Notes under the pieces: model-generated
What the model was told of the DNA's origin: nothing
Database searches by the model: none
Seen by the model: only the letters and a program-made list of their open reading frames with translations
Part shown: positions 21,613 through 39,162 of the stretch, one piece after another
Layout of the letters: every line of letters begins with the position of its first letter
Position numbering within the stretch: position 1 is the stretch's first letter
Source of the DNA: an uncultured Candidatus Peribacteria bacterium
GTDB taxonomy: Bacteria > Patescibacteriota > Gracilibacteria > RBG-16-42-10
Assembly (NCBI GenBank): GCA_964512325.1
Contig: CAZEGN010000001.1
Coordinates: 17,517-81,516 of the forward strand
Length of the DNA: 64,000 nt
Reading direction: 5' to 3'
Program-made: the position numbers and the translations under genes

Positions 21613-22572
21613 ATGGATTTACGATCTTTCTTTGAGCAAAATCGCCTCCAGACCACTAGACCAATTATCAACAATCTTGGGGTTGGAACAGTAATTGTGT
21701 CTACAAGATCAGACACACAAGCCGTCTATAGTCCTAGCGCGCTAGGAAAAGCTTGGCTTGGCACAAGAAAGATCACCCGCTTCGTCATCACCACTCTGCT
21801 CATTTTTGGTGTAGTCCAAGTGGGCTTAAACTTCCAAGCATATAAGCAGCAATACGAGTTTTTTAGAGAAAAACAGCTAGCAATTAAAGATCCTCAAAAG
21901 GAAATTCTCAAATCCCTCCAGGTGGCGCCAGCTGCTAATGCTACGATTAGCACCACGCAGGTCGCTCAAGCAGACACCACAAATGTTGAGGATAGCTTCA
22001 CCCTTAGACCAGAGGTGATTAATTTTCGCAATTATGAAGTAGCACCAAGCGACAACCGCATTGTCATTGGCAAAATTGGCAAGAATGTACCAATTGTTCA
22101 GGTATCTGATGAAAAGCTGCTTACCCAAGACTATGCTGGTTTAGAGCAACAGATACAGGAGCAACTACTCAAAGGCATCGTTCATTATCCAGGCACAGCA
22201 AAACCCGGTGAAATTGGCAACTCCTTCTTTACTGGTCACAGCTCGAATTATCCTTGGATTAGTAGTGCTTATAATGCAGTGTTAGCATTACTACAAAATT
22301 TGGTTGTGGGTGATAAAGTCACTGTCTATTGGGAGGGACAAAAGTTTATTTATCAAGTATATGATATTAAAACAGTGTCACCGACCGAGACATGGGTATT
22401 GCAACAAAGTGGCAATGAATACGATTCAATTTTGACACTCATGACCTGTACACCAGTTGGCACCAGCTTAAATCGCCTTATTGTACGCGCTCAACAAATT
22501 TATCCTGATCCTCAAAAAAACACCCCTCCCACCAATAGCGTTATTGCACCTAATAGCTTAATTAGCAGCTAA
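21613..22572 (+). CDS. sortase-family transpeptidase, membrane anchored
   Basis: N-terminal TM ITRFVITTLLIFGVVQV. Catalytic His in FFTGHSSNY, TLMTCTP Cys motif and NRLIVRA Arg. Confidence 0.8.
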   Translation: MDLRSFFEQNRLQTTRPIINNLGVGTVIVSTRSDTQAVYSPSALGKAWLGTRKITRFVITTLLIFGVVQVGLNFQAYKQQYEFFREKQLAIKDPQKEILKSLQVAPAANATISTTQVAQADTTNVEDSFTLRPEVINFRNYEVAPSDNRIVIGKIGKNVPIVQVSDEKLLTQDYAGLEQQIQEQLLKGIVHYPGTAKPGEIGNSFFTGHSSNYPWISSAYNAVLALLQNLVVGDKVTVYWEGQKFIYQVYDIKTVSPTETWVLQQSGNEYDSILTLMTCTPVGTSLNRLIVRAQQIYPDPQKNTPPTNSVIAPNSLISS

Positions 22573-23873
22573 GAGGTTAGTGCTTTTAACCAAGTTCGGA
22601 CCGGGTAAGAGTGAAATTTGATTTGTTGGTTATGCCAGACAGCTATACCTTGATACGGTAACACCGCTGCTTTATTAGTATCTTCTTCGATTGTATAAAT
22701 TCCCAGCGGTGATGACATAATCATGTGTAGCTTACCATCAGCGGAATTAGCCAACCAAGCATAAGTGCTATAAATTTGTGCAAAGGTGATCTCACTAGGG
22801 GCCTGTCCCACAAATTGAACTCCATCCTCAACATCAACAATCCACACTTTAGCAGCGCTAACAATCATAATACGACCAGCCTTAAGAAAGAAACGCGCAT
22901 TGCTCCAAGTGTTTACTAATGTCAAAGACTCATTGCTTCTTCTCCACAATGTCACTTGACCAGTAAGAGTATGCACTACTACATACTCGTTACTTACGCC
23001 CACATTATCCACCGTAGTGCTAATAGTGGTGGTTGCTTGTTGCAAGCCACTAATCAGAGACTGTCGGTATAAAGTGTTATTTTGCACAAACCAAATTTCT
23101 TGCCCCGCTAAATCAAACGCATCCACATCTTGTATTTCCAACTCTTTGCTCACATTTCCGGTAGGGACAATTTTTTCTAAGGTCAATGTGGCATTTTGAT
23201 GGCTTAAAATAAAGTAATTGGCTTGGAATCGGAAAAAGCGCATATCTTCTTTACGCTCTATCACATCGAGCAACACCTTATAACTCAGTTCTACGGTATT
23301 TACTAAGATAGTTCTTTCATCACCAGCGACCACACAAGCCTCATCGTTTGCGCTACATAAAACATATTCCTTACTAGTAACGGGAATTACCAGTGCTCTT
23401 TGTAACTCGCCATTTGCTAGTGGCTTGAGCCAGGTTACATCTTTTTCTGTGCGCATCAATAAAAGACCTGTTTGCGGCAATGGATCTAAACCAATAATAG
23501 GGTCAGTTGAATCAAAACTGCCTTGCCAATTGTTTTTTTCAGGCCACAGGGGTAACTCTCTCAGCCTGGTAACCACATGCGGAGAAACAATAGTAGAGAT
23601 ATCTAGTGGTTGATAACCAGCCAGCTCAATATGGAGACTATATGTGCCTGGCATATAATGCGACATTGAAACTGGTGTACTATCTTTTAAAGTTTTGCCA
23701 TCCACTGATACCACCGCTTGAGTGGGATATGTTCCAACCTCCAAGACACCAGTAGTGATCAATTGCTGATTTTTAAAGTCGATAGTATAGCCCTGTGCGA
23801 AGCCTAAAATAAGCGCACTAGCTACAATATATAAAAGAACCACGCTTATTGTTCCCAACCATTTGCGACCCAT
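22569..23873 (-). CDS. TM-anchored PEGA-domain protein (last gene of the T4SS-like operon)
   Basis: N-terminal TM GTISVVLLYIVASALILGF. PEGA-like PTQAVVSVDGKTLKDSTPVSMSHYMPGTYSLHIELAGYQP. The C-terminal two-thirds look beta-rich. Confidence 0.65.
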   Translation of the reverse strand: MGRKWLGTISVVLLYIVASALILGFAQGYTIDFKNQQLITTGVLEVGTYPTQAVVSVDGKTLKDSTPVSMSHYMPGTYSLHIELAGYQPLDISTIVSPHVVTRLRELPLWPEKNNWQGSFDSTDPIIGLDPLPQTGLLLMRTEKDVTWLKPLANGELQRALVIPVTSKEYVLCSANDEACVVAGDERTILVNTVELSYKVLLDVIERKEDMRFFRFQANYFILSHQNATLTLEKIVPTGNVSKELEIQDVDAFDLAGQEIWFVQNNTLYRQSLISGLQQATTTISTTVDNVGVSNEYVVVHTLTGQVTLWRRSNESLTLVNTWSNARFFLKAGRIMIVSAAKVWIVDVEDGVQFVGQAPSEITFAQIYSTYAWLANSADGKLHMIMSSPLGIYTIEEDTNKAAVLPYQGIAVWHNQQIKFHSYPVRTWLKALTS

Positions 23874-23890
23874 AAGACAATAAGGTGAAA

Positions 23891-24385
23891 CTAATTAGCA
23901 GAAGGGGTAACTACAGGCAAAGTTACTTCTGTCTCAGTACTTTGATTTGCGCCTGTAGGATTAGCCACAGCACCCTTTTGGGCAATTCCTTCAGGCAATG
24001 TACAGCCAGTTTTGTCAGCTAGAAACTGTAGACTTTGCCGCCCGGTCACAGGATCTTTGCCATCAAATTTCCATGTTGGTGTAGCTGTAATACCTGCCTC
24101 CTTGCATTCATCAGACCAGGTATTATTGGGCAACTTACACTCAACATAAGTTATGTATTGCATCGATCTTCCGAAATCGGCCTTTTGGGCTAAACAGTGA
24201 GGACAATCAAACATGCCATAAAACACTGCCTTTTTCTCGGTTAAACATTTAGCGAAGTCCGCTAACACACTAGGAGTAAAAAAACGCAAATAAGTAAAAG
24301 CCACAGCTACCACAAAAATAGGTAACACAACCCATAACCAGGTAGGAATTCCTTTTGATTCTTTCTTTGAAGAAGCCATATACAA
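23891..24385 (-). CDS. membrane-anchored thioredoxin-fold thiol:disulfide oxidoreductase (CPHC)
   Basis: N-terminal TM WLWVVLPIFVVAVAF. FYGMFDCPHCLAQKADFG...YVEC...CKEAGITATPTWKF resembles the Trx-like domain that is fused to bacterial VKOR homologues. Confidence 0.7.
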   Translation of the reverse strand: MYMASSKKESKGIPTWLWVVLPIFVVAVAFTYLRFFTPSVLADFAKCLTEKKAVFYGMFDCPHCLAQKADFGRSMQYITYVECKLPNNTWSDECKEAGITATPTWKFDGKDPVTGRQSLQFLADKTGCTLPEGIAQKGAVANPTGANQSTETEVTLPVVTPSAN

Positions 24386-24420
24386 GATTTAAGTCTACGT
24401 AAAAAAGAATAACAAAGATA

Positions 24421-24448
24421 GTGCGAAATGTGAAATGTGAAGCGTGAA
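24421..24448. repeat. heptanucleotide tandem array (ATGTGAA type, 4 units)
   Basis: Units are gtgcgaa atgtgaa atgtgaa gcgtgaa. The array lies between the 724-aa gene stop and the thioredoxin gene start. Confidence 0.8.
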
Positions 24449-24486
24449 CACCAGCGCTAGAACTTATGCTGTAATTTCACACTACT

Positions 24487-26661
24487 TTATAGTATTAAAC
24501 AGCTTTTGCTCGCATCATTACTGCAAGGAAACGTCGTGAGTATACTAAGCTCAGGATTAGCGCTAATTGGATTAAATACTTGCCAAGCACCATTGGCTAA
24601 TTTGTATTCAAAGCGCATAGTTACACCTTCAAAAGTGTGACCACCAGTTTGAGCCAATGTGCCAATCTTTTCAGCCGCTGCTACCGTTTTTCCCAATGTC
24701 AATTCTGGCAGGAGGGCAATATGATAATAGGAGACACGTAGATTATTAGGATATTCAATTGTGGCATAGTCACCCAGAGTGGGATCGTCATATACTAGAC
24801 GGATAATTTTGCCAGCATGAATTGAGCGGACATCAACCCGTGCGGGGTCAATTTTGCTGCAATCAATGGTTTGATGGATCGGCAAGGTAATGATAGTGGT
24901 TGTACCATCAGGCATAGCAACGCGCTGCAAGCTAGTCTCATTGCTATAGGGCAACTCAGATAGCTGGCACTGAGCAGGACTAACATAGCCTGCCCGATTG
25001 GTTTGAGTAGCAAAGGTTGAGGGCAGTGCTGCCGGTCTTGTCAGCAAAGTATTAGCGATAAGCACCTCTTCGGTAATGGTCTCAGAATCAGCCAAGGTTG
25101 CGCCTGCGCTATTCTGACCTGAGGCAGCAGTGGCACCAGTGGTGCCGGATGAAGCAGAGCCTGTTCCACCTACACCGCCCGTCACAACATTCAGCTTGTC
25201 ACATAATTGAGCAAAATAGCCCACATCACTATGCATTACAGCCCCAATACGGCTCACTACACCCATCGGAATACCAAAAGGAATACGTGACTGTCCGATC
25301 GAACAAGTGAGCACACTCAACCCCATTACGACTGTTAAGAAGGCCATTAGCATTCCACCGCCGGCAATGAGTATAAATGGGATTAGTAAAGCTCTCACTT
25401 CTTTCCAGCGCTCCTTACGGAAAACCCAGACAATGAGACCTACTACATGGAAGATAAAAATTAGTATACCAACACCAGAGATAAGCTCTACTATTAAAGC
25501 GATCAGGTTGGCGATGAATTGATTCTGAACACCGCTCAAACCAAGCTTTTTTCCCGCGACATCAACTGCCTTACCAATGGTTTTTTGAACTGCTTGCTGT
25601 TTTAGGTTGGCACCAGAAGTGGGAGAGCCTTTATTGCCCTGACTAGTTTTAGTACTAGCACCACCACTGGGAACTTTGCTTTTATTGCTACCACCTTCCT
25701 GTGATTTTGCAACTGGACTTTCTGTAGGTTTTTTATCTGTCGTCAAGCGTTCTCTTGGCCTTTTGTTGCTGTCTGCAGCTCGATTCGAATAACCTGCATT
25801 TTTAGCACGCCGATCATTACCGTTTGCTGGAGCAGCATTAGGTCTTGCTGGTGATCCAGGTTGTGCTGCTGCTACTTGAGGACGCTGTCTCGTTGGTTGT
25901 ACTCTTGCTGGCGTACCCTGAGACCGATTTTGTTGAGTTGCAGGTGCAGGTGTACGCTCAGATGTCCGCTGTTGTTGTGGCGCTGCTGCTTGAGTTGGAG
26001 TGTTAACCGCTCCTGCCACATTCTGATTAGGCGCCGCGACATTTTCTTGATTAGCATTGCCAGGATTTCCTTCGTCCCCTGCTTGTTTAGCATCAGGGGT
26101 TCCTTGCTGTTGCTGATTATTCTCCTTACCTTGTCCTGCTTCTCCTCCCTCGTTCGCATCCTTATTCTTATCCTGATCCTTATTCTCATTCTTTTCTCCC
26201 TCTTCCCCTTCCTTTTCTCCTTCTTCTTTCTTCTTCCCCTCTTCATCTTTTTCTTTTCCTTTTTCTCCTTCTTTATCTTTCTTTTTATCTTCACCTACAC
26301 CATCATCCCCACTTGCCTCTCCCGCCTTTGCCTCACCTCTATTTTCCCCCTCCTGCGCTCTCTCCTGGCCATTATCCTTCTGCCCATTCCCATTCTGCAC
26401 GCCACTAGCACCTTTATTATCACCTGAAACATTGGTGCTCTGACCATTACTATTACCAGCATCTGCACCAGCGGCATTATCATTAGTAGCCTGTGTACCA
26501 GCACTGCCAGCTGCTGATGCATTGTTATTATCATTCGCTGCTTGGCCGGCACTATAAATTGTCTTGGTTCGCACATTTTGCTCAACCGTAGTTTCACTTA
26601 TGAGTTTTCCGTCTTCTCCCGATTCTGCCTCGGCCGGTAATTTCTGTGCTGGCTCTGCCAT
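24487..26661 (-). CDS. membrane protein with disordered N-terminal half, TM hairpin and C-terminal degenerate LytM/M23-like domain
   Basis: About 360 aa of G/N/Q/E/K-rich low complexity. TM segments FIANLIALIVELISGVGILIFIFHVVGLIVWVF and LLIPFILIAGGGMLMAFLTVVMGL. The C-terminus GKIIRLVYDDPTLGDYATIEYPNNLRVSYYHIALL...GKTVAAAEKIGTLAQTGG...TMRFEY follows the M23 pattern, but the HxH motif is replaced by TMR. Confidence 0.6.
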   Translation of the reverse strand: MAEPAQKLPAEAESGEDGKLISETTVEQNVRTKTIYSAGQAANDNNNASAAGSAGTQATNDNAAGADAGNSNGQSTNVSGDNKGASGVQNGNGQKDNGQERAQEGENRGEAKAGEASGDDGVGEDKKKDKEGEKGKEKDEEGKKKEEGEKEGEEGEKNENKDQDKNKDANEGGEAGQGKENNQQQQGTPDAKQAGDEGNPGNANQENVAAPNQNVAGAVNTPTQAAAPQQQRTSERTPAPATQQNRSQGTPARVQPTRQRPQVAAAQPGSPARPNAAPANGNDRRAKNAGYSNRAADSNKRPRERLTTDKKPTESPVAKSQEGGSNKSKVPSGGASTKTSQGNKGSPTSGANLKQQAVQKTIGKAVDVAGKKLGLSGVQNQFIANLIALIVELISGVGILIFIFHVVGLIVWVFRKERWKEVRALLIPFILIAGGGMLMAFLTVVMGLSVLTCSIGQSRIPFGIPMGVVSRIGAVMHSDVGYFAQLCDKLNVVTGGVGGTGSASSGTTGATAASGQNSAGATLADSETITEEVLIANTLLTRPAALPSTFATQTNRAGYVSPAQCQLSELPYSNETSLQRVAMPDGTTTIITLPIHQTIDCSKIDPARVDVRSIHAGKIIRLVYDDPTLGDYATIEYPNNLRVSYYHIALLPELTLGKTVAAAEKIGTLAQTGGHTFEGVTMRFEYKLANGAWQVFNPISANPELSILTTFPCSNDASKSCLIL

Positions 26662-26727
26662 AATTTCAAGTAGAAAAGATAGTTTGGGGACAGGTGATTA
26701 TAAAGCCAACTCAATAAATTTCAACTC

Positions 26728-28767
26728 TTATTTGGCTTCAAAGTCCTCCGCTTGATTACGCATTTGTAACAATTCTTCTGGGTTGGTAGTAATCACTCGG
26801 TGCTCAGCTGCTGAAGCAATAACTTGAATCGCCACATGCTTTCTACCGGCAAAGAAAATACCTTCACCCTGGACTGAGTTCAGCAAGTAATATTGCTCAC
26901 CTTCAGTAAGGTTAAATATCTTTGCTAAACCTGGTATGGCCGATGGTGCTTGTTTAAGCAAAAGCTGCATTGCGGAGTTGGTAATAATTGATTTGCCAAA
27001 ATCACGTGCAATAAAGTCTTCCACATCTTGAGTAATCGTAGTGACCCCCAGATAATACTTACGAGCTCGTTTCACCAAGCCATAGACGAATCGAGCAGCA
27101 TCATCATGCTGTACCATGGTCCAGGCTTCATCTATTACCAATAGACGGCGCTTCAGCTTACTACGCACGACATTCCAAATATAATTCAAAATGATGTACA
27201 TGGCAGTAGGGCGCAATACCTCATCCAAATCACGCATGCTGAACACCACCAAACCTGCCTTTAAGTTTACATTTGTTGGCTTATTAAAAATACCGGCAAA
27301 AATACCAGCAGTATACTGACGCAAGCGTTGAGCAATATCTTCTCCTCCCTTTGTGTCTTGCAATACATCATACAAATCTTCCATAGTAGGAGCCGGAATA
27401 TTACCAGGATTTACTGTATCCATCGTAATGCCTTTCAAGGCATACGTATCAAGCAAAGCCTGATCAACCAGGCCTTCTTCACGAGGCGTTAAATCACCAA
27501 GCATCAACTTCATTAACCCCTTCAAATTGATAATTGCTGTACGCAGAAGGTCTCCAGGCTGTTCTTCTTTCCCTTCATAAGGCAAAGGCAAATCAAACGG
27601 GTTAATGCGTCGATCAGCGTTGAGCGAAACATCCATATAAGTGCCTCCCACCATATCACAAAGCGCTTTGTACTCATTTTCAGGATCGATTACGATGACA
27701 TCTGTACCGAACATCAAACTACGGAGAATTTCCAGCTTCACAGCATATGATTTACCGGCACCAGAAGTGGCAAATACTACGGAATTAGCATTAGGCAAAC
27801 TGAAGCGGTCGAAAATAATCAGTGAGTTATTATGACGATTAATACCATACAAAATTCCTTGGTCAGAGGTGAGCTCAGATGATGTAAATGGGAAAGAGCT
27901 TGATAAAGGCTCAGTATTCATATTTCTGACTACATAGAGCTCGTCAGTCGCATATGGCAAGGTTGAATGGAAAGCTTGTTCCGTACGAGCCTGAATAGAC
28001 TTGATGACCAACAGTTTACCACCCAAAATAGCCTCTAGCTGTTTCCCAAGATTAGCGAGCTGTTTTTCTGAGGTGGTGTAAATTGTAAAATACAGTCCAA
28101 ATTGGAAAAACTTTTCAACACCAGTAGAAATTTTATCACGAAGCTCTTCGGCATCAGACAAGGCTGCCTCTAAAGCAGGGTCGCGAGCTTGCCCACGCTC
28201 TTGTTGAATACGAATAGCAGATTCCATTTGTCCCACTTTGCTTTGCAAGCTGCGTAGGATTTCTGCTGACACAATAGGATAGACAAACATCGAAATATCC
28301 ATGGTCGCCTCCAAATTAATCACTGGAGCAAGCCAGTTTGTTTCTAGGTAACGAGGATAGGCATAAACGACATAGGTGCGAGCGTAGACATCATTAATGG
28401 TCAGCTTGTCATAATCTACTTTCATGCTCGAAGGGGCAATCAGATCTTTCACCGACGCAAGTCCAGCCTCATAAAGCTTTTGTGCTTCATCAAGCCGTTT
28501 TTGTTCAGAGCTCTTCTGTTCCTCACTTTGAGCGGGCGTATTGCGGTTTAAGAAGCTAAAGCGTTTCTGCATGCTAGTGCGTCCCTGACGCTCAGTCTGC
28601 GTCATTTTCACTTGAGCAGTAGTTGCTACTACGTCCGCTTTTGCAGGAGCATTTTGAATTGCCGGTGCCGGCGACTTTTTTTTGCCTACCAGCATCCCTT
28701 TCAGATCTTGGAAAGATCCTTTTATTTGCGCCCAGAATCCTGATTTTTGAGGAGTAGGATTAGTCAT
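26728..28767 (-). CDS. virB4: VirB4/TrbE/PrgJ-family type IV secretion ATPase
   Basis: Walker A VVFATSGAGKSYAVK (about 27749-27772) and Walker B RRLLVIDEAWTMV. VirB4-type N-terminal domain LTINDVYARTYVVYAYPRYLETNWLAPVINLEATMDISMFVYP. C-terminal GVTTITQDVEDF. Confidence 0.88.
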   Translation of the reverse strand: MTNPTPQKSGFWAQIKGSFQDLKGMLVGKKKSPAPAIQNAPAKADVVATTAQVKMTQTERQGRTSMQKRFSFLNRNTPAQSEEQKSSEQKRLDEAQKLYEAGLASVKDLIAPSSMKVDYDKLTINDVYARTYVVYAYPRYLETNWLAPVINLEATMDISMFVYPIVSAEILRSLQSKVGQMESAIRIQQERGQARDPALEAALSDAEELRDKISTGVEKFFQFGLYFTIYTTSEKQLANLGKQLEAILGGKLLVIKSIQARTEQAFHSTLPYATDELYVVRNMNTEPLSSSFPFTSSELTSDQGILYGINRHNNSLIIFDRFSLPNANSVVFATSGAGKSYAVKLEILRSLMFGTDVIVIDPENEYKALCDMVGGTYMDVSLNADRRINPFDLPLPYEGKEEQPGDLLRTAIINLKGLMKLMLGDLTPREEGLVDQALLDTYALKGITMDTVNPGNIPAPTMEDLYDVLQDTKGGEDIAQRLRQYTAGIFAGIFNKPTNVNLKAGLVVFSMRDLDEVLRPTAMYIILNYIWNVVRSKLKRRLLVIDEAWTMVQHDDAARFVYGLVKRARKYYLGVTTITQDVEDFIARDFGKSIITNSAMQLLLKQAPSAIPGLAKIFNLTEGEQYYLLNSVQGEGIFFAGRKHVAIQVIASAAEHRVITTNPEELLQMRNQAEDFEAK

Positions 28768-29479
28768 TTTCAGTTTGGCCGGCTACTTTGGGAAAGTCGG
28801 TAAGATTTAATTGCAACAGATTTTCTACCTTTTGTCCTTGGGAATTAATTGGATTATGTACCTCATAAAGCATTTGAATCAGCTCATGTGTATTTAAGCG
28901 ACGCACATAGAGACCAGAATTGCCTAAAGCAGCAATAACAGAATTCGCTCTTTGATTCAGTGTTTTTCTTAATGCTGAAAACTCTTGCTGACGGATTTTA
29001 TACTCTAAGCCATTGTCTGAAGGATTGAGCTTCTGCATGAATTTTTGAAAGAAATTTGTACTTTTTACACGATCAGACTCATGTGGAATAACGACATAAA
29101 AGTCCTTTTCCATAATATCAGAGTACTCTACGAAACTAGCCACGAAATCAATGTAGTCGAAAGTCTGCTGCTTGAGACGCGTCTCGCTTTGTTTATTGGC
29201 AATTTCATTCATGCGTGTTAAGTAGCCTTCAATATCAAGGCGCTTGGAACGAATGATGATTTGGATAGGAAAGTCCAAAGCATTTAAGAAGCTCTGATAG
29301 GATAGAATAATAGAGTTTTGTTCTTGTTCTGAAAGCAGCTCAAAGTTAACGCTAGAAACAGCCAGTACCGCTCTTACACTGCCATCTTTAAGCACAATTG
29401 TATTGTCCTTAATCTCAGCGATCTTAAGATGCGTTTGTGTGCTGGCCTCGACATTTCCTTTTCTCTGATTTACTGGCAT
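28760..29479 (-). CDS. T4SS-associated protein resembling a stand-alone VirB4 N-terminal domain
   Basis: LKIAEIKDNTIVLKDGSVRAVLAVSSVNFELLSEQEQNSIILSYQSFLNALDFPIQIIIRS matches the pattern at the start of Gram-positive VirB4 homologues. It overlaps virB4 by 8 nt and has no NTPase motifs. Confidence 0.45.
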   Translation of the reverse strand: MPVNQRKGNVEASTQTHLKIAEIKDNTIVLKDGSVRAVLAVSSVNFELLSEQEQNSIILSYQSFLNALDFPIQIIIRSKRLDIEGYLTRMNEIANKQSETRLKQQTFDYIDFVASFVEYSDIMEKDFYVVIPHESDRVKSTNFFQKFMQKLNPSDNGLEYKIRQQEFSALRKTLNQRANSVIAALGNSGLYVRRLNTHELIQMLYEVHNPINSQGQKVENLLQLNLTDFPKVAGQTEND

Positions 29480-29481
29480 AG

Positions 29482-29976
29482 CTATTTCTTTTTTGAATTG
29501 ACTTTAAACGCTGTGTGTAGCATCTCATCATCGCTAGACTCATCGATATCGCTTAAGCCTTCAGTGTCTAATACAGATGTGAGTTCCTTGAGTGAAGCGA
29601 ACTTCTTTGTGGGCTGTTCTATAGGCTTTTCTACCTGTTTAGCTGGCACTTTAGCCGCAGCCAGATCAAAACGCTCAAAAATCGGCACTTCTCCACTGCC
29701 CTTTTCCCAAACACGCAACCGAGGTTTTAGCATATAAAGGGTCATGGCGACAAGAAACTGCGCAAAGCTCATATCATGAATACGCACCAAGGCAAAAGCG
29801 GCAGTAATAGCGACAACAATTGTCCCGAACACAGGTCCAACTGGCGACTCCAAGTAGGCATACATCATATAAGCAAGCCCTCCACCGACAACAGCAATAA
29901 TCAAGCCTGACATAGTCAGAGGCCCGATAATTGTATCGGCTCGCTGTACATTTTGTGGTACTTTGAACTGTGCCAT
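29482..29976 (-). CDS. PrgI-family (VirB3-like) small T4SS membrane protein
   Basis: From Met30: MAQFKVPQNVQRADTIIGPLTMSGLIIAVVGGGLAYMMY, then a second TM GPVFGTIVVAITAAFALV. This is the typical PrgI/VirB3 architecture, and the gene sits directly upstream of the virB4 module. Confidence 0.65.
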   Translation of the reverse strand: MAQFKVPQNVQRADTIIGPLTMSGLIIAVVGGGLAYMMYAYLESPVGPVFGTIVVAITAAFALVRIHDMSFAQFLVAMTLYMLKPRLRVWEKGSGEVPIFERFDLAAAKVPAKQVEKPIEQPTKKFASLKELTSVLDTEGLSDIDESSDDEMLHTAFKVNSKKK

Positions 29977-30049
29977 GGGGGATTTATATATTTGTATCAA
30001 GCAATTATACCACACAATAAGAGCAAAGTTCAAAGAGCAAAACGGAAAC

Positions 30050-30106
30050 AATTCAAGATTCAAGATTCAAAATGCAAAGAGGAATCATTAATTATAGATG
30101 TATCGA
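30050..30106. repeat. composite heptamer-periodic element (homologous to 47366-47435)
   Basis: aattcaagattcaagattcaaaatgcaaagaggaatcattaattatagatgtatc compared with gaattcaagattcaaaatgaaaaatgcaaagaggatacggaggattataaattatagattatc. Confidence 0.8.
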
Positions 30107-30178
30107 AGCATAGAGATCAGAGCTCAGAGCACATGCATCTCGCCTGCAATTAGGATATTTCCTTATTCCTATTCCCTC

Positions 30179-30213
30179 AATTCCGAGCTCAGAACTCCGA
30201 ATTGCGAATTCTT
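30179..30213. repeat. heptanucleotide tandem array (AATTGCG/AACTCCG type, 5 units)
   Basis: Units are aattccg agctcag aactccg aattgcg aattctt. Confidence 0.8.
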
Positions 30214-30366
30214 TTGCATTTCTTTATAAGCTTCCCAATACTGCTACCAGCCTCTCCCAGGCAACTTGTATCGCCCACCACATATCCAGCAACAAGTTCC
30301 ACAAAAAAGTAAGAATTGTATAAAGAATCTCCATAGGATGAAAATTATACTAGTTGCAGTATAGCA

Positions 30367-33300
30367 CTAGGGAGTTCCTCCGGTATTGCCCGCATTGTTA
30401 TTGCCTCCCTGTTGAGCTTGTTGACGTGCCCGCTCTTTTTCGATTTCAAGCTGCTGTCTATTTTGTCTAGCTCTCTCAACGATACCATCTCTAAACATGT
30501 TTAGGGCAGCAGTACCTTCCGGCAATAACTCAGCCTTACCTTCAGCATTAATTGAACCATATTTGCGATTAGCAGCAACCAAGGCCGCGGCAAAGTCTTC
30601 TTCCAAAATCGCATTCATACGGTCAATTTGTGCTTGCGTAGTGGTAATCGCAGCCACATTCTCCAGCACATCATTCAAATGAGTTCGATTAAAGGTATCT
30701 CCTGCAGTTCTATCCTGCGTTGCGTCCACTGCTGGCAAATTGTTGATTAAACTGGCAAATGTTTTGGCAATCATTTGTGGCGCACTTTCAGTGCTTGCAT
30801 TGACCGCACGAGCAAGTTCAGCAGGATCCATTTGCTTAACGTAGTTGCCAATCTTATCATCATCACCATTAGTAAGAGTAATACTACCAACCTTAGCTAC
30901 ATGAGTATTTCTATTAGAAGCAATTAACTTGCGACCGATATCAGACTCTTCCAGCTTAAACTCTGCCCCCTGAGCATCTCTATATACACCTTCTGTGGCA
31001 AGACTACCAATAATTTGAGCAATCTCAGCGCGTTCTTCATCACTGCCATTTTGCATTGCATCACGTAATGAAGAATGCTGTCTTAATAAGCCGAGTTCCT
31101 GTGCCGCCTGGAACACGCCTCCTCTACCACTTGCCGCGTCTCCGTTTAAGTAGCTATCAAAAATGCCTTTATTCTTTAGATTTACACCCCAGATACCAAT
31201 CGAGCTACCAACCTTTTTGTTTAGAGCACGGAAATCATCTTCGCTAAAGTTCACTGCCTCACTAGGATCACGCGCATATTCGCTCATTGCAAGCAACATT
31301 TCGCGCAAAGCCAATCCGGCACCTTCCGGACCATTACTTATCCAACCACCTTTGCCGTCACGAACTCTATCCGCAATACGCCCTGAGGCAAGCACATTTC
31401 CTAACAAACCAACCATTTCGGCAGCTTGCTGATTTTCACGCAGACTTTTTAAGCGCTCAAAGTTAAATGCTGTTTGGCCAGTTCTGGATGCACGAGATTC
31501 CTCTTTTGCTGCTTTATTATTAATAGCGCTATAGTTAGCATCTTCCAAATTATCCAGCACATTATCAATTTCTTCTGGCCTTGTGCCACTACTCATCAAG
31601 AGTTGTTGCAAATTGTCACGCAGTGATTTTTTATTCTTCATAATTTGCTCCAAGTTCAAATCACCACGAGATGCCAAAATGCGTGCACGTGCTAGCAGTG
31701 CCTGCACATCTCCAGATGAAATCGATTCATCCAAACGCTCACGCAAAAGCTGTTTACTGCTAAAGCGTAATGAATCCAGCTTTTCAATTTCAGACACTTG
31801 AGCCTCACGATGCTGTGTCAACAACGCACGCATTTTTTCTTGTCTAGTGCCAGGCAATACACGAGACATGCTATGAGCACGCTCTAGACCAAAACGGGTA
31901 GCACGCTCTTTAGCATCTTTCTGGAATGACTCATACACAGTTTTCGCTCCGGCAGCTGTGTTTGAAGGTGCTGACATAATCCAACCCAAGCCACGCAAAG
32001 GTGCTCCCAGAGGTCCCTTGATATCTCTTAATCTATTACCGGCAGCTTGGCTCAGTCCATAGCTTAAACCTAGACCCTTTTTAGCATAACCAAATGCAGC
32101 GGAAGGACTGCCCCAGCCGGCGACCTTATCAATAAACCCTTGCGCATAATCCCCTTTAGCAGCGGTAAATACACCAGCATAAATCATGGCAACGATGAAG
32201 ATTAACTTCAAATAATCTGCTAACGATTGGAAACCGGATGGACCAAGTTGTGAACCGGCAATCAGACCTGGTTGTTGCAACGCAGGGCTAAAAATCTGCG
32301 GCACGACACTATCAGCAGCCAAAACAGCCAAAGTCATAAAGAAAGCTACACCAACGTGCATCGTGGCATATTTGAAGAATTTGCTCTGCCACTGACCACC
32401 AATACTTGAGGTTAAAGGAGACAGTTTGCTAACCACATATAATGGCGATGTAATTGCTAAAGCCCAAAGCACAATAATACGAATAGTAAAGGTAATCGCT
32501 AAAGCTAAGAAACCAAAAAGCAACATGAATACCATTAGGAAAAGCGCCATATTGGCAAAGAAAAAGTCAATTTGTCGACCGGGCTGATTGGCATTATTTG
32601 AAATCGAATAACGTTGCATCTCCTCAAATTTCAAACCACGTGCCAATCGACAGAGCACACTACCTTCTTTTACATCATCAGGAATAGTGGAAATTCTCCA
32701 GCCTCCGGCGGCTACCTGGCTTGCAGTCAGCTGCGAACAACGAGCTTCAGTACCTGCACCATGAGGTCCCATGCCACCGACTTGATATACCCCAGCCTCA
32801 ACCACATTTGCAGCATCAATAACCAGACCAACGAACAAGCGTGAAAAGTTCACCGCAATGACAATCACAATTAGCTTAGGCAGAATAGTTTTAATTGCAT
32901 AATTATTGATTTCGTATTGGACAATATTTGCAATTGCAATACCTAGCAATGCAAGAATGAAGAACAAATTCACAAAGTCACGGATAGCCATCCACATCGT
33001 CACTACAAATGATGACGTGGTAAATCCGGTGTAGCTAAGAACGGACTGAAATAAACTCATTACCAATGCGGCCAACCAAAAACAGAATTTGATTAAGAGG
33101 GCAAGAATGACATTAATGAAACTCAATATTGCGTTGAGCAATTGATTACCGACATCGACGCCATCCACATCATGTCCAGCCTCTCGATTAGTAATCGTAG
33201 CCTGATCTTCTTCATCTAAGCTCAAACAAGTAGGATTGCTGATACAAGCATCAATACGTCCAATGAGGCTTTGTAAAGCTTGCACTGTCGCTGGTGAACG

Positions 33301-35301
33301 AGCCATGCTGAGTGTTGCTCCTCCTGAAACTGTAACCTCAAATGAGAAGTTGCGTGAAAGAATGAGCGTGAACTCGTTATTAGTATTTGACCCATCAACG
33401 AAGTTAGCTTCATGTTGCAAACACGCTTTCCAACTTGGCAAATTATCTTTGTTGATAGTGTCAGAAAAGAGATTAGGCGAACAAGCATTGAGCAACTTGG
33501 CTAAGAAAGGATCTGTAAACCATGTACTTATGCCTGTAGCGTCACGTTCATCAATTAATAATTCCAAATCACCGGTCGTATGAATAATCGCTCCGACGTA
33601 ATTGGGTTGGTGATCATTGGTAGCTAATGCGTACCACAAACCAATAGCAGCATCTTTAGGTGAACTAGCAAGAGCAGTGCGATCAATATAACTATTTAAC
33701 TGCTCTAAGGCGCTTCTGCGCGTATCAGACTGACCACGGACCACATTTCCTAATGATTGCTGGAAAACCTGAGTATTTTGCTGCGCCGTACTTCCTCCGG
33801 CTGCAGGTGGATTTGCCGCAGGGGGTGCAGGTAGAGGTCGATCTAAATAGGTGGAAGCCTGACTAATGAGCCTTTCATTAATTGCTTTTAGATGTCTTAC
33901 TAATGGTGCACGAACCGCATTATTTAATGTAGTAATGAACACGGCGCTCTCTGTTGGCGCGGTAGCTGCTTGAGCAGAACTAAATTGCACTTGGCTAGAA
34001 TCAAAAACACCAGCGCCAAATTCTAAATAGCCTTCGTATATTGTTTCTTTCAAGAAATCTTCCAAGCTGTATTCAAACTTTTGCACCGCTAAAGCATCAT
34101 AACCATCAGCTAAATCAAGATAATTATCATTACGCAAAAAGTTAACCAACAGCGCACGATCAGCCGCAGGAACAGAAGTAGCTAAACTATTGGTAGCCTC
34201 AATAAGAATACTGGTGGCAAAAGATCTACCATCAGCGGACATGTTCACGCCATTAGTACCACCTGTGTCAGTCAGATGAACTTGATAGCATTGACCTAAG
34301 CGAGTGACATATGTGTCGTTAGGATTAGCTGCAACCTCTCTCTGACAAAGGGCCATTAAGCGTCCAATTGGCCCACGCGTGCCAAATATGCTTTCTTCGG
34401 TGTAATGCTCAGAATAAAAGTTACGGAAATTAACATAGGATGTTCCATTTGAAGCACGAAAAATCGTACCATTACCTTGATTTACGGTCTCAATAAACTG
34501 CTTGAGCGCTCGCATCTTAGCGTTAATTCCACTAGCTCTGGCACGAGCAACATCTGTAGGCTCAGCAGGAGGAGGCATATCAGATCGGCTACCAATATCA
34601 GCGATCATGTACACCATTGCAGCAGCTAAACCACGAGCTCCAAAACTACCCGCACCTAAAACATTCTCTCGAGAAGAACAAAATGGCACATCACCATCTC
34701 CGTTCTCTCCATACCAAGCTAGCCCACGGTAACTGCCTGGCAAATCATCGGTGTTTCTAGAAGGACCTCCTGGCGGAATATCCAAAATCTGACACAATAC
34801 ATCATTAGCGTTACCATCCATCATGGTATCAAACACTTCCCCAATTTCTTCAAAACCGCCCATACCGTCTAACCCCACTAAACTATTCTCACGAAGATAC
34901 AGATCAATAGTTTGAGATTGCGATGATGCGGTTGGCACTGCAGAGCCATAGATACGTTCCATAACGCTATTTGGCAAACCTGCAGCTGTTCCTAGTGCAT
35001 TATTATCAAAAAAGCTAAACAATGGCACCTTGATTACATTTTGCCAAATAGTTCTAGCAGGCTCATCCAAGTCATCACGGTTTAAACATTCACGTATTTG
35101 TACCCAAGTTGTAAGATCATTTTCATCGCTACAGTCATTAAAAAAGCCCGCAAACGTAGAAGAAGAGGCTCTAGCTTGAGGAGTATTTAAGGACACAGTT
35201 GGTAAGCCACTTGAAATGGAGATAACTAACAAAGCGACTAGCACCATCAACTTTTGTAGTGCTTTGAAAAAGATCGAGAATTGCTTGGGGGAGGGAGCCA
35301 T
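30367..35301 (-). CDS. giant VirB6/TrbL-like polytopic T4SS membrane protein with large N- and C-terminal extensions
   Basis: Signal/TM LMVLVALLVISISSGLP. An extracytoplasmic region of about 700 aa. Multi-TM core (about 32270-33160) with LNAILSFINVILALLIKFCFWLAALVMSLF. A hydrophilic tail of about 630 aa ends in QQAQQGGNNNAGNTGGTP. Confidence 0.6.
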   Translation of the reverse strand: MAPSPKQFSIFFKALQKLMVLVALLVISISSGLPTVSLNTPQARASSSTFAGFFNDCSDENDLTTWVQIRECLNRDDLDEPARTIWQNVIKVPLFSFFDNNALGTAAGLPNSVMERIYGSAVPTASSQSQTIDLYLRENSLVGLDGMGGFEEIGEVFDTMMDGNANDVLCQILDIPPGGPSRNTDDLPGSYRGLAWYGENGDGDVPFCSSRENVLGAGSFGARGLAAAMVYMIADIGSRSDMPPPAEPTDVARARASGINAKMRALKQFIETVNQGNGTIFRASNGTSYVNFRNFYSEHYTEESIFGTRGPIGRLMALCQREVAANPNDTYVTRLGQCYQVHLTDTGGTNGVNMSADGRSFATSILIEATNSLATSVPAADRALLVNFLRNDNYLDLADGYDALAVQKFEYSLEDFLKETIYEGYLEFGAGVFDSSQVQFSSAQAATAPTESAVFITTLNNAVRAPLVRHLKAINERLISQASTYLDRPLPAPPAANPPAAGGSTAQQNTQVFQQSLGNVVRGQSDTRRSALEQLNSYIDRTALASSPKDAAIGLWYALATNDHQPNYVGAIIHTTGDLELLIDERDATGISTWFTDPFLAKLLNACSPNLFSDTINKDNLPSWKACLQHEANFVDGSNTNNEFTLILSRNFSFEVTVSGGATLSMARSPATVQALQSLIGRIDACISNPTCLSLDEEDQATITNREAGHDVDGVDVGNQLLNAILSFINVILALLIKFCFWLAALVMSLFQSVLSYTGFTTSSFVVTMWMAIRDFVNLFFILALLGIAIANIVQYEINNYAIKTILPKLIVIVIAVNFSRLFVGLVIDAANVVEAGVYQVGGMGPHGAGTEARCSQLTASQVAAGGWRISTIPDDVKEGSVLCRLARGLKFEEMQRYSISNNANQPGRQIDFFFANMALFLMVFMLLFGFLALAITFTIRIIVLWALAITSPLYVVSKLSPLTSSIGGQWQSKFFKYATMHVGVAFFMTLAVLAADSVVPQIFSPALQQPGLIAGSQLGPSGFQSLADYLKLIFIVAMIYAGVFTAAKGDYAQGFIDKVAGWGSPSAAFGYAKKGLGLSYGLSQAAGNRLRDIKGPLGAPLRGLGWIMSAPSNTAAGAKTVYESFQKDAKERATRFGLERAHSMSRVLPGTRQEKMRALLTQHREAQVSEIEKLDSLRFSSKQLLRERLDESISSGDVQALLARARILASRGDLNLEQIMKNKKSLRDNLQQLLMSSGTRPEEIDNVLDNLEDANYSAINNKAAKEESRASRTGQTAFNFERLKSLRENQQAAEMVGLLGNVLASGRIADRVRDGKGGWISNGPEGAGLALREMLLAMSEYARDPSEAVNFSEDDFRALNKKVGSSIGIWGVNLKNKGIFDSYLNGDAASGRGGVFQAAQELGLLRQHSSLRDAMQNGSDEERAEIAQIIGSLATEGVYRDAQGAEFKLEESDIGRKLIASNRNTHVAKVGSITLTNGDDDKIGNYVKQMDPAELARAVNASTESAPQMIAKTFASLINNLPAVDATQDRTAGDTFNRTHLNDVLENVAAITTTQAQIDRMNAILEEDFAAALVAANRKYGSINAEGKAELLPEGTAALNMFRDGIVERARQNRQQLEIEKERARQQAQQGGNNNAGNTGGTP

Positions 35302-39126: not shown

Positions 39127-39162
39127 AGAAAAAGATTAATTAGCGCAATTATAAATTGTTAA

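What the first reader, a model, noticed from the sequence alone, without database searches (positions are those of the whole stretch)
22569..35301. Chromosomal, relaxase-less Gram-positive-type T4SS-like operon
Seven co-oriented minus-strand genes run in this order: VirB6-like giant membrane protein (1644 aa), PrgI/VirB3-like protein, a 239-aa protein, and VirB4 ATPase (Walker A GAGKS, Walker B LLVIDEAW). These are followed by a membrane protein with a degenerate LytM domain, a CPHC thioredoxin and a TM-PEGA protein. The first five slots match the VirB6/VirB3/VirB4/cell-wall-enzyme/VirB8-slot order that I recall for the prgH-prgL region of enterococcal pCF10. Nothing in 64 kb looks like a coupling protein (VirD4/FtsK-like), relaxase, integrase, replication gene or oriT. 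The flanks are core genes (sortase and RNase J on one side, a P-type ATPase on the other). This argues for a domesticated secretion, uptake or contact apparatus rather than a conjugative element. T4SS-like genes have been noted in Patescibacteria, but their function and most partners are unresolved.
Basis: partly seen in the sequence, partly recalled or inferred. Interest (0 to 1): 0.8.

Follow-up and report, generated by a model that had tools for sequence, protein, structure and literature searches.

The report
Chromosomal Patescibacteria-type type IV secretion locus
This is a real chromosomal, relaxase-less type IV secretion gene cluster of an ultrasmall CPR (Patescibacteria) bacterium, but the kind is already published, so it is a new member with some lineage-specific extras rather than a discovery.

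Summary
All seven minus-strand genes are present at the stated coordinates. Five can be assigned:
- an extended VirB6 (1644 aa);
- a PrgI/VirB3 protein;
- a VirB4 ATPase of the Gram-positive CD1110/MPF_FATA type;
- a membrane protein with a degenerate LytM domain.

They are followed by a membrane-anchored VKOR-type thioredoxin-like protein (CPHC) and a membrane-anchored PEGA protein.

No coupling protein, relaxase, integrase or replication gene occurs in the 64-kb window or in the 10 kb to its left. A Candidatus Abawacabacteria genome has the same 15-gene order, core-gene flanks included, although its surface proteins are only 41-46% identical. This is therefore an inherited chromosomal locus, not an ICE.

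Points added here:
- a roughly 680-aa Cys-rich N-terminal ectodomain on VirB6;
- the dLytM-Trx-PEGA tail, seen only in this small clade;
- a 768-aa protein 5.4 kb away that carries a VirB2-like pilin hairpin.

Cargo and direction of transport remain unknown.

The parts
30367..35301 (-). Extended VirB6-like protein, 1644 aa. Layout: signal/TM 8-39; Cys-rich helical ectodomain about 41-716; polytopic VirB6 core about 717-1050 (window 32152-33153); Cys-free C-terminal domain 1051-1644.
   Evidence: TM segments and Cys distribution. The core lies upstream of PrgI-TrsD-VirB4 in 35 of 80 Patescibacteria loci. Nine of 35 homologs hit Pfam TrbL/VirB6 PF04610, best E=2.8e-7; the window protein itself does not. 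A profile search of PDB gives TrwI/VirB6 as the only hit, E=0.42. The AF2 core model has pLDDT 82.8, and its top four Foldseek PDB hits are TrwI/VirB6 of R388, probability 0.99-1.00, TM 0.45-0.53. The ectodomain model is poor (pLDDT 64.8) and has no structural match.
29482..29976 (-). PrgI/VirB3-like two-TM protein. Likely 164 aa from the ATG at 29976; the mechanical ORF extends to a TTG at 30063.
   Evidence: PF12666 PrgI, E=3.4e-11, 44 bits against a cutoff of 27. JGI calls a 164-aa gene. Two TM segments. A promoter-like site sits just upstream.
30004..30033 (-). Promoter-like site TTGAAC-18-(TG)TATAAT, 28 nt upstream of the PrgI ATG. A possible internal promoter for prgI-trsD-virB4.
   Evidence: This is a consensus match only. 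Promoter-like sites in the region are not more frequent than in shuffled sequence (28 found, 29.1 expected).
28760..29479 (-). TrsD-like soluble protein, 239 aa: a stand-alone homolog of the VirB4 N-terminal domain. It overlaps virB4 by 8 bp.
   Evidence: NCBIfam NF041427 TrsD/TraD, E=1.3e-9. It matches only the N-terminal part of VirB4 models: NF045975 positions 99-252 of 894, TIGR00929 positions 18-169 of 792. JGI annotates it PF26593 TraC-like. It is adjacent to virB4 in most (about 65) of the 80 Patescibacteria loci and is 89% identical in the Abawacabacteria ortholog.
26728..28767 (-). VirB4 ATPase, 679 aa. It lacks the canonical N-terminal domain, which TrsD appears to supply.
   Evidence: NF045971 conju_CD1110, 363.8 bits (cutoff 325), aligned to profile positions 177-734 of 752. 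PF19044 P-loop_TraG, E=1.5e-26. 29% identical to pCF10 PrgJ, E=2e-49, with Walker A and B motifs visible. Nearest relatives are all CPR MAGs, 50-85% identical.
24487..26661 (-). Membrane protein, 724 aa. Layout: about 380 aa of low-complexity N-terminus; TM hairpin 381-457; C-terminal degenerate LytM (M23-like) domain 608-687. It occupies the slot that the cell-wall enzyme PrgK holds in pCF10.
   Evidence: Peptidase_M23: 23.8 bits, below threshold. The ortholog in L083 scores 36.1 bits, above threshold. TM segments.
23891..24385 (-). Membrane-anchored extracytoplasmic thioredoxin-like protein of the VKOR-partner type, with a CPHC active site.
   Evidence: phmmer against PDB: 3kp8 (Trx-like domain of Synechococcus VKOR), E=1.7e-15. 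N-terminal TM 10-42. CPHC and all six Cys are conserved in the ortholog. That it belongs to the T4SS is inferred only from co-orientation and spacing.
22569..23873 (-). N-terminally anchored PEGA-domain surface protein, 434 aa, with about 330 uncharacterised C-terminal residues.
   Evidence: PF08308 PEGA, E=5e-7. TM 4-31. Ortholog 41% identical. The internal LPQTG is not conserved, so it is not a sortase signal. Membership in the system is inferred only.
40748..43054 (+). Candidate additional component, 768 aa. A VirB2-like pilin hairpin (residues about 400-500, window 41945-42247) sits between two Cys-rich extracellular domains.
   Evidence: phmmer finds homologs 2-6 kb from virB4 in other Patescibacteria loci. 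Those homologs hit PF18895 T4SS_pilin: L080 E=1.8e-11, L056 E=1.6e-9. The window protein itself scores only E=0.0031, below threshold. A jackhmmer family model scores it E=2e-38, and the family lies near virB4 in 20 of 80 loci. The ortholog is syntenic in L083.

Best explanation
This is the chromosomal, vertically inherited type IV secretion system typical of Patescibacteria (CPR), in an Abawacabacteria/Peregrinibacteria-like organism that uses the standard genetic code. It derives from the conjugation machinery of monoderm bacteria (MPF_FATA).

Shown here:
- The cluster encodes the membrane translocon set. This is a VirB6 core inside a giant protein, PrgI/VirB3, and a VirB4 motor whose N-terminal domain is supplied by a separate, probably translationally coupled TrsD-like protein.
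- Next comes a membrane protein with a catalytically degenerate LytM domain, in the position of the cell-wall enzyme PrgK.

Inferred:
- VirB4/TrsD hexamers dock on PrgI and the VirB6 core and power assembly and transport.
- The Cys-rich VirB6 ectodomain, and probably the VirB2-hairpin protein at 40748-43054, form the extracellular stalk that crosses the wall and touches the host cell.
- The dLytM protein positions or regulates wall remodelling rather than cutting peptidoglycan itself.
- The membrane-anchored CPHC thioredoxin-like protein forms or shuffles disulfides in these ectodomains.

The locus has no relaxase and no coupling protein, and the homologous system in Southlakia epibionticum is essential for epibiotic growth independently of ComEC. 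The most likely job is therefore contact-dependent exchange with the host bacterium, not conjugation. I favour export of proteins or enzymes onto or into the host. Direction and cargo are not established.
For: - Component identities.
- No T4CP, relaxase, integrase or replication gene in 64 kb plus 10 kb, and no flanking direct repeats.
- GC is uniform, 0.41-0.46 across the operon against 0.40-0.48 for the whole window.
- The same 15-gene order, with the same core-gene flanks, is found in GCA_016207805.1.
- In that comparison the motor proteins are more conserved than the housekeeping neighbours, and the surface proteins much less. VirB4 88%, TrsD 89%; RNase J 76%, P-type ATPase 70%; giant protein 46%, dLytM 43%, PEGA 41%. 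Within the giant protein the TM core is 78% identical, against 39% and 41% for the flanking domains.
- The core module VirB6...PrgI-TrsD-VirB4 recurs in most (about 65) of 80 Patescibacteria loci.
- Cys counts fit extracytoplasmic domains next to a Trx-like oxidoreductase: 10 in the VirB6 ectodomain and none in its C-terminal domain, 15 in the 768-aa pilin-hairpin protein.
- Literature: the system is essential in S. epibionticum and lacks a recognisable relaxase or T4CP (PMC10633639). It is present in 2,417 of 3,035 Patescibacteria genomes as a monophyletic VirB4 clade nested in MPF_FATA (PMC12102498).
Against: - Function, cargo and direction are untested in any member. Reviews say the role is 'completely unknown' (PMC11665869).
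- Only 74 kb of a 317-kb contig was seen, so a distant T4CP cannot be excluded. T4CP homologs are common elsewhere in Patescibacteria genomes.
- The window's giant protein does not itself hit the VirB6 Pfam model. The structural match to TrwI is modest (E=0.025, TM about 0.5), and hhalign against PrgH was not significant.
- No VirB8-like protein was found.
- Trx, PEGA and the 768-aa protein are linked to the system only by position. The relatives that keep them also keep the unrelated flanking genes, so synteny does not discriminate.
- Promoter and terminator scans are at chance level, so the operon structure is not shown.
Confidence: 0.75

Rival explanations
1. The machine is an import conduit. 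It takes up host-derived molecules (nucleotides or DNA, lipids, other building blocks) through the T4SS channel, by analogy with the H. pylori ComB and archaeal Ced DNA importers.
For: - Patescibacteria lack de novo nucleotide, lipid and amino-acid synthesis, and reviews propose T4SS-mediated uptake (PMC11665869; PMC12857230).
- The VirB4 has a weak partial match to the CedB DNA-import ATPase (NF041017, E=1e-11, far below cutoff).
- A ComFC-like gene lies in the window at 59532-60179.
- The absence of a T4CP and relaxase fits a non-export role.
Against: - There is no direct evidence in any Patescibacterium.
- comEC deletion abolishes competence without affecting viability in S. epibionticum, while the T4SS is essential, so at least classical DNA uptake is not the essential role.
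- The ComFC-like gene is 24 kb away and not linked to the operon.
- The CedB match is a generic P-loop similarity.
Confidence: 0.2
2. The locus is an integrated conjugative element, or the decayed remnant of one. Its relaxase, T4CP and integrase lie outside the window or have been lost recently.
For: - The components are homologous to those of conjugative plasmids and ICEs of Firmicutes.
- Only 74 kb of a 317-kb contig was examined.
- A minority of Patescibacteria do carry relaxases (109 in 103 genomes).
Against: - Gene order including both core-gene flanks is identical in a genome whose housekeeping proteins are only 68-76% identical.
- GC is uniform.
- There are no bounding repeats, tRNA gene, integrase or other mobile-element genes.
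- The motor proteins are under stronger conservation than the neighbouring housekeeping genes, which does not fit decay.
- The published phylogeny shows one monophyletic, class-congruent Patescibacteria clade.
Confidence: 0.04
3. Only the four or five upstream genes (VirB6, PrgI, TrsD, VirB4, perhaps dLytM) form the T4SS. The Trx-like and PEGA genes and the 768-aa pilin-hairpin gene are unrelated envelope genes that happen to be neighbours.
For: - Trx and PEGA homologs are not found near virB4 in any of the other 80 loci.
- Possible internal promoters lie before prgI and before the 724-aa gene.
- In the only genomes that keep these genes, the unrelated flanks are kept as well.
Against: - The genes are co-oriented with 17-101 bp gaps.
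- The Cys-rich ectodomains of the T4SS proteins give the Trx-like protein an obvious substrate.
- The pilin-hairpin family is demonstrably virB4-linked in 20 of 80 loci.
- PEGA proteins also flank the pilin-hairpin gene.
Confidence: 0.35

Closest known systems
Patescibacteria-clade T4SS (Southlakia epibionticum ML1 SEML1_0006-0019, Wang et al. 2023; survey by Quinonero-Coronel et al. 2025)
   Same: - Chromosomal, with no relaxase or T4CP nearby.
- VirB4 of MPF_FATA ancestry with an adjacent TrsD.
- PrgI/VirB3 and VirB6 upstream.
- A cell-wall-enzyme-like protein after virB4.
- A VirB2-like pilin family nearby.
- Nearest VirB4 relatives are all CPR.
   Different: - VirB6 carries an extra N-terminal ectodomain of about 680 aa, seen in only about 9 representative clusters.
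- There is one pilin-hairpin gene, embedded in a 768-aa protein and separated from the operon by a P-type ATPase gene, rather than an array of small pilins.
- The wall-enzyme slot holds a degenerate LytM domain.
- A VKOR-type Trx-like gene and a PEGA gene follow, and the survey mentions neither.
- The survey reported VirB6 as absent, and TrsD and VirB3 as not virB4-linked, in class Gracilibacteria. NCBI labels some of this window's nearest relatives Gracilibacteria, but here all three genes are adjacent to virB4.
Enterococcus faecalis pCF10 Prg/Pcf conjugative T4SS (prgH-prgI-prgJ-prgK-prgL)
   Same: Same order: VirB6-like, PrgI, VirB4, then a large membrane-anchored wall-enzyme-like protein. 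VirB4 is 29% identical to PrgJ, E=2e-49. The PrgI family matches.
   Different: - pCF10 has the T4CP PcfC, the relaxase PcfG, the VirB8-like PrgL and the LPXTG adhesins PrgA/B/C. None of these was found here.
- PrgH is 266 aa against 1644 aa, and the profile comparison was not significant.
- PrgJ has its own N-terminal domain, whereas here that domain is the separate TrsD.
- PrgK has lysozyme and CHAP domains, whereas here there is a dLytM domain.
Staphylococcal pGO1/pSK41 Trs system (TrsD-TrsE)
   Same: A stand-alone TrsD-like protein is encoded next to the VirB4 ATPase (NF041427, E=1.3e-9).
   Different: The score (38 bits) is far below the family cutoff (200). According to the survey, the pGO1 subclass lacks a recognisable VirB6, which is present here. 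The Trs system is conjugative and has a relaxase and a T4CP.
Extended VirB6 proteins (e.g. the Rickettsiales Rvh system), as described in PMC12857230
   Same: A VirB6 polytopic core is combined with very large hydrophilic domains.
   Different: The review describes central or C-proximal extensions. Here there is also a secreted, Cys-rich N-terminal extension of about 680 aa. The organism is a monoderm CPR bacterium. No sequence similarity outside the core was detected.
T4CP-less effector T4SSs (Bordetella Ptl, Brucella VirB)
   Same: These work without a VirD4-type coupling protein, which shows that a T4SS can secrete protein without one.
   Different: They are diderm MPF_T systems with VirB7/9/10 core complexes. 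Their cargo is known, whereas here it is unknown.

Membership tests
Type IV secretion system (any class) | A VirB4-family ATPase with intact Walker A and B motifs | tested here: met
   NF045971, 363.8 bits against a cutoff of 325. PF19044, E=1.5e-26. Motifs SGAGKS and LLVIDEAW are visible in the alignment to PrgJ.
MPF_FATA (monoderm) class T4SS | VirB4 closest to the Firmicutes/Actinobacteria/Tenericutes/Archaea type, PrgI-type VirB3, and no outer-membrane core (VirB7/9/10) | tested here: met
   The best NCBIfam models are CD1110 and the Mycoplasma ICE VirB4. PrgI PF12666. No VirB9/VirB10 family hit in any window ORF. No formal phylogeny was made here; the published tree is in PMC12102498.
Patescibacteria-clade chromosomal T4SS | VirB4 groups with CPR homologs, with TrsD and VirB3 adjacent | tested here: met
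   All 80 best genome hits are CPR MAGs or mislabelled bins, 50-85% identical, against 29% to PrgJ. PrgI-TrsD-VirB4 are contiguous.
Patescibacteria-clade chromosomal T4SS | Chromosomal location, without an associated relaxase or coupling protein | tested here: met
   None was found in 64 kb plus 10 kb. Core-gene flanks are conserved in GCA_016207805.1. The rest of the genome could not be tested.
Conjugative element (ICE or plasmid) | A relaxase and a T4CP linked to the mating-pair genes | tested here: not met
   No relaxase or VirD4/TcpA/FtsK-like family hit among all ORFs of 100 aa or more in the window or in the left 10 kb.
Conjugative element (ICE or plasmid) | An integrase or replication module, bounding repeats, and atypical composition | tested here: not met
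   No integrase or replication genes. No flanking direct repeats. No tRNA gene at the borders. GC is uniform.
VirB6/TrbL | A polytopic membrane core (5 or more TM helices) with family-level sequence similarity | tested here: inconclusive
   Six TM segments. The window protein has no PF04610 hit, but 9 of 35 homologs do, best E=2.8e-7. The only PDB profile hit is TrwI, E=0.42. hhalign against PrgH was not significant.
VirB6/TrbL | VirB6 fold | tested here: met
   AF2 model with pLDDT 82.8 and pTM 0.76. The top four Foldseek PDB hits are TrwI/VirB6 chains of R388, probability 0.99-1.00, E=0.025-0.06, target-normalised TM 0.45-0.53.
Active M23/LytM metallopeptidase | Zn-binding HxxxD together with the HxH motif | tested here: not met
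The domain fold is supported by PF01551, 36.1 bits, in the ortholog.
Thioredoxin-like oxidoreductase (VKOR-partner type) | Trx-like domain with a CxxC motif, outside the membrane | tested here: met
   E=1.7e-15 to PDB 3kp8, with CPHC aligned to CPHC. N-terminal TM anchor. Conserved in the ortholog. No VKOR or DsbB partner was found in the window.
VirB8-like (PrgL/TraM/TcpC, NTF2-like fold) | A bitopic protein with an NTF2-like ectodomain encoded in the cluster | not tested
   No Pfam or NCBIfam hit was found, but detecting this family needs structure models of the unassigned proteins and none were left to run. The slot after the wall-enzyme gene holds a Trx-like protein instead.
VirB2-like T4SS pilin (PF18895/PF04956) | A two-helix hydrophobic hairpin matching the pilin profile, encoded near virB4 | tested here: inconclusive
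   The 768-aa protein scores only 18 bits (cutoff 26.6). Its hairpin is homologous to virB4-linked proteins that pass the threshold (L080 44.4 bits, L056 38.1 bits). It lies 5.4 kb from the operon and is far larger than a pilin.

The most novel reading that the evidence does not exclude
In this Abawacabacteria-like lineage the T4SS may have been rebuilt around disulfide-stabilised giant ectodomains. In this reading, three parts assemble into an extracellular stalk. They are the 680-aa N-terminal extension of VirB6, a VirB2-type hairpin fused to two putative enzyme domains (motifs resembling an alpha/beta-hydrolase and a papain-like peptidase), and PEGA proteins. A dedicated membrane-bound Trx-like oxidase would mature the stalk. 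The stalk would breach the host envelope, either to extract nutrients or to deliver the fused enzymes. That would be a pilin-anchored effector mechanism not described for any T4SS.
Probability: 0.12. Interest if true: 0.7.

Novelty: new member of a known kind. Interest (0 to 1): 0.3.

Why it matters
The Patescibacteria T4SS is one of the few machines known to be essential for the epibiotic lifestyle of a very large, mostly uncultured part of bacterial diversity, and its cargo and direction are unknown.

This locus does not open that question. It adds a compact, well-resolved example from a lineage close to those for which the 2025 survey reported VirB6 missing and the components scattered.

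It also points to concrete candidates for the extracellular part of the machine: the Cys-rich VirB6 ectodomain, the pilin-hairpin fusion protein, the dLytM protein, the Trx-like oxidase and the PEGA proteins. These could guide structural and interaction studies.

Tried and rejected
- Direct Pfam and NCBIfam searches of the 1644-aa protein found nothing.
- Three word-indexed homolog searches with it returned only 2, 1 and 4 hits: whole protein, core, and core profile. The exhaustive representative search was needed instead and gave 9,582 hits.
- hhalign of the core profile against pCF10 PrgH was not significant: probability 0.3%, E=0.21.
- BLASTP of TrsD against PrgJ found nothing. The link to the VirB4 N-terminal domain rests on NCBIfam profiles only.
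- phmmer of the dLytM domain against PDB gave only low-complexity noise.
- The AF2 model of the VirB6 N-terminal ectodomain was of low confidence (pLDDT 64.8) and its Foldseek matches were meaningless.
- phmmer of the 768-aa protein against PDB gave nothing. Its alpha/beta-hydrolase-like and papain-like motifs are by-eye observations, plus one weak Peptidase_C70 hit (E=0.017).
- I looked for small two-TM pilin ORFs in the intergenic gaps and found none.
- I looked for C-terminal LPXTG sortase substrates and found none. The internal LPQTG in the PEGA protein is not conserved.
- Promoter and terminator scans were at chance level.
- The look-up meant to extend the window to the right returned a different, short contig.
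- HMM searches for TrsD, PrgI and VirB6 next to virB4 in 12 of the nearest Peribacteria/Gracilibacteria loci (L003-L012, L014, L015) were negative under both code 11 and code 25. The compact arrangement is therefore not universal among the nearest relatives.

Full report
**Observation**

| Window coordinates | Length | Assignment |
|---|---|---|
| 30367-35301 | 1644 aa | extended VirB6-like |
| 29482-30063 | 193 aa | PrgI/VirB3-like |
| 28760-29479 | 239 aa | TrsD-like |
| 26728-28767 | 679 aa | VirB4 |
| 24487-26661 | 724 aa | degenerate LytM membrane protein |
| 23891-24385 | 164 aa | thioredoxin-like |
| 22569-23873 | 434 aa | PEGA |

- PrgI and TrsD are 2 bp apart. TrsD and virB4 overlap by 8 bp. 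Trx and PEGA are 17 bp apart.
- The one large gap (390 bp) follows the giant gene. It contains a promoter-like TTGAAC-18-TGgTATAAT 28 nt before an in-frame ATG at 29976.
- The JGI gene call also starts PrgI at that ATG, giving 164 aa.

**Source**

The window is part of a 316,862-bp metagenome contig, JGI 3300013121, Ga0172278_1472.

**Component identities**

*VirB4.* It passes the curated cutoff of NCBIfam NF045971, 'VirB4-like conjugal transfer ATPase, CD1110 family' (363.8 bits against 325). It aligns to pCF10 PrgJ at 29% identity, E=2e-49, and Walker A (SGAGKS) and Walker B (LLVIDEAW) are visible in the alignment. Only profile positions 177-734 are covered, so the usual N-terminal domain is absent.

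It matches NCBIfam TrsD/TraD (E=1.3e-9) and only the N-terminal parts of VirB4 models. It is a stand-alone VirB4 N-terminal-domain homolog, so the pair behaves as a split VirB4.

*PrgI.* It is a clear PF12666 member, E=3.4e-11.

*The giant protein.* It has no direct family hit, so I assigned it indirectly.
- It has a signal/TM segment, a 676-residue region with 10 Cys, six hydrophobic segments between residues 717 and 1049, and a Cys-free C-terminal region of 594 residues.
- Its hydrophobic core is conserved upstream of PrgI-TrsD-VirB4 in 35 of 80 Patescibacteria loci.
- The core has 9,582 representative homologs at E<=0.001.
- Nine of 35 homologs hit Pfam TrbL/VirB6, best E=2.8e-7.
- A profile of the core finds TrwI (the VirB6 of R388) as its only PDB hit, E=0.42.
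- An AF2 model of the core (pLDDT 82.8) has TrwI/VirB6 chains as its four best Foldseek matches, probability 0.99-1.00 and target-normalised TM 0.45-0.53.

Together these support 'extended VirB6'. The comparison with pCF10 PrgH itself was not significant.

*The 724-aa protein.* It has a long low-complexity N-terminus, a TM hairpin and a C-terminal M23-like domain. The domain is below threshold here (23.8 bits) but above threshold in the ortholog (36.1 bits). Aligned with lysostaphin, both orthologs keep HxxxD but lack the HxH segment.

*The 164-aa protein.* It gave no Pfam hit, but it matches the thioredoxin-like domain of Synechococcus VKOR (PDB 3kp8, E=1.7e-15) with CPHC aligned on CPHC. It has an N-terminal membrane anchor.

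*The last gene.* It encodes an anchored PEGA protein.

**Context**

- Pfam scans of every ORF of 100 aa or more in the window show housekeeping genes and unassigned surface proteins. The housekeeping genes include tRNA synthetases, TopA, Mfd, MreB, IF3, L20, Tgt and RelA. RNase P RNA and two tRNA genes are also present.
- There is no coupling protein, relaxase, integrase or replication gene. The 10 kb to the left on the same contig is also housekeeping.
- GC is flat across the operon, and no repeats bound it.
- A Candidatus Abawacabacteria MAG (GCA_016207805.1) has the same 15 genes in the same order, including both flanks.

Protein identity between the window and that MAG:

| Group | Protein | Identity |
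|---|---|---|
| Motor and membrane parts | VirB4 | 88% |
| | TrsD | 89% |
| | PrgI | 71% |
| | VirB6 core | 78% |
| Housekeeping neighbours | RNase J, P-type ATPase, sortase | 68-76% |
| Exposed parts | VirB6 ectodomain | 39% |
| | dLytM protein | 43% |
| | PEGA protein | 41% |

The motor is as conserved as the housekeeping genes or more so, while the exposed parts diverge fast. This pattern fits an inherited, selected chromosomal machine with rapidly evolving surfaces. It does not fit a mobile element or a decaying remnant.

The 768-aa ORF at 40748-43054 lies on the other side of the P-type ATPase gene. It contains a two-helix hairpin (residues about 400-500).
- The hairpin is homologous to proteins encoded 2-6 kb from virB4 in other Patescibacteria.
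- Those proteins match Pfam T4SS_pilin above threshold (L080 E=1.8e-11, L056 E=1.6e-9). The window protein itself scores only E=0.0031.
- A family model built by jackhmmer finds the family near virB4 in 20 of 80 loci, sometimes in tandem arrays, and only in this one ORF of the window.

This is the VirB2-like pilin family already reported for Patescibacteria. Here it is embedded between two large Cys-rich domains (15 Cys). PEGA proteins follow it, and the whole block is syntenic in the Abawacabacteria genome. I list it as a candidate component, not a proven one.

**Comparison with what is known**

There it is followed by a T4CP and a relaxase.
Wang et al. 2023 (PMC10633639) showed by Tn-seq that an unusual, Gram-positive-like T4SS without recognisable coupling or relaxase proteins is essential for epibiotic growth of Southlakia epibionticum.
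- Quinonero-Coronel et al. 2025 (PMC12102498) found VirB4 in 2,417 of 3,035 Patescibacteria genomes. These form a monophyletic clade nested in MPF_FATA, with TrsD, PrgI, VirB6, M23/LysM-type wall enzymes and VirB2-like pilins nearby and almost no relaxases.
- A 2025 review treats these systems as established newcomers to the T4SS superfamily (PMC12857230).
- A 2024 perspective states that their function is completely unknown, with effector delivery and nutrient or DNA uptake as the current speculations. I found no later mechanistic paper.

**What is particular to this locus**

1. The N-terminal VirB6 ectodomain of about 680 aa is shared by only about nine representative clusters.
2. The dLytM-Trx-PEGA tail is absent from the other 78 loci examined. 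The survey mentions neither thioredoxin nor PEGA.
3. There is a single pilin-hairpin fusion protein rather than an array of small pilins.
4. The arrangement is compact, in a lineage whose nearest relatives are labelled Gracilibacteria, Peregrinibacteria, Peribacteria or Abawacabacteria. The survey reported that in class Gracilibacteria VirB6 is absent and TrsD and VirB3 are not virB4-linked. Twelve of the nearest loci do lack these neighbours under either genetic code. I did not establish the GTDB class of this organism, so this contrast is tentative.

**Mechanism**

Shown: the gene set for a VirB6/VirB3/VirB4(+TrsD) membrane translocon, with a non-catalytic LytM protein in the wall-enzyme slot and no conjugative DNA-processing genes nearby.

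Inferred, from the R388 and Gram-positive T4SS literature and from topology and Cys patterns:
- TrsD and VirB4 dock on PrgI and the VirB6 core.
- The Cys-rich ectodomains form the wall-crossing, host-touching part.
- The Trx-like protein oxidises or isomerises their disulfides.
- The dLytM protein scaffolds or regulates wall opening.

I favour contact-dependent protein export to the host over import, but this is weakly supported. Nothing here tests cargo or direction.

**Verdict**

This is a new member with lineage-specific accessories and is of modest interest.

Noticed in passing
window 40748-43054 (+): A 768-aa secreted protein with a VirB2-like T4SS-pilin hairpin (residues about 400-500) between two Cys-rich domains. 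By eye, the N-terminal domain has alpha/beta-hydrolase-like motifs (MYVHLHG, GHSGA). The C-terminal domain has papain/C39-like motifs (SCGAAAF, GHYTVIIG) and one weak Peptidase_C70 hit (E=0.017). It may be a pilin-anchored enzyme.
   Followed up: partly
window 38149-46128: A block of unassigned envelope genes next to the P-type ATPase gene: 325 aa, 472 aa, the 768-aa protein, a 332-aa PEGA protein, a 296-aa PEGA protein with a cupredoxin-like C-terminus, and 391 aa. The block is fully syntenic in the Abawacabacteria MAG (L083). It may extend the T4SS locus.
   Followed up: partly
window 4960-4975, 6347-6362, 19235-19271 (three overlapping copies), 30196-30211, 63766-63781: A 16-nt motif, TCCGAATTGCGAATTC, occurs 7 times with up to 3 mismatches, against 0.44 expected by chance. 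All copies are on the + strand. At least five lie in intergenic gaps, including the gap between the VirB6 and PrgI genes. It could be a regulatory or REP-like element.
   Followed up: partly
loci L003-L012, L014, L015 (Peribacteria/Gracilibacteria MAGs): These carry some of the closest VirB4 homologs (56-66% identity), yet none has TrsD, PrgI or VirB6 within 10 kb under code 11 or code 25. Some (L009, L012, L014) do have pilin-hairpin genes nearby. The T4SS genes appear scattered in these lineages but compact in the window's lineage.
   Followed up: partly
window 6491-7558 (-) and 44060-44950 (+): Two surface proteins carry cupredoxin/plastocyanin-like domains, one with SLH domains and one with PEGA. 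This is unexpected for an organism that presumably lacks a respiratory chain.
   Followed up: no
window 59532-60179 (-): A ComFC-like competence protein (double zinc ribbon plus phosphoribosyltransferase domain) lies 24 kb from the T4SS operon and is not linked to it.
   Followed up: no
window 10446-13490 (+): A 1014-aa protein with no Pfam hit lies between topA and a Ser/Thr protein kinase-like gene (13504-14583). Its function is unknown.
   Followed up: no
locus L053 12637-13980 and similar loci: In several other Patescibacteria, the second or third gene after virB4 (about 450 aa) is RadA/Sms-like, as shown for L053. This agrees with the published note that DNA-recombination and competence genes sit near the T4SS in class ABY1.
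   Followed up: no
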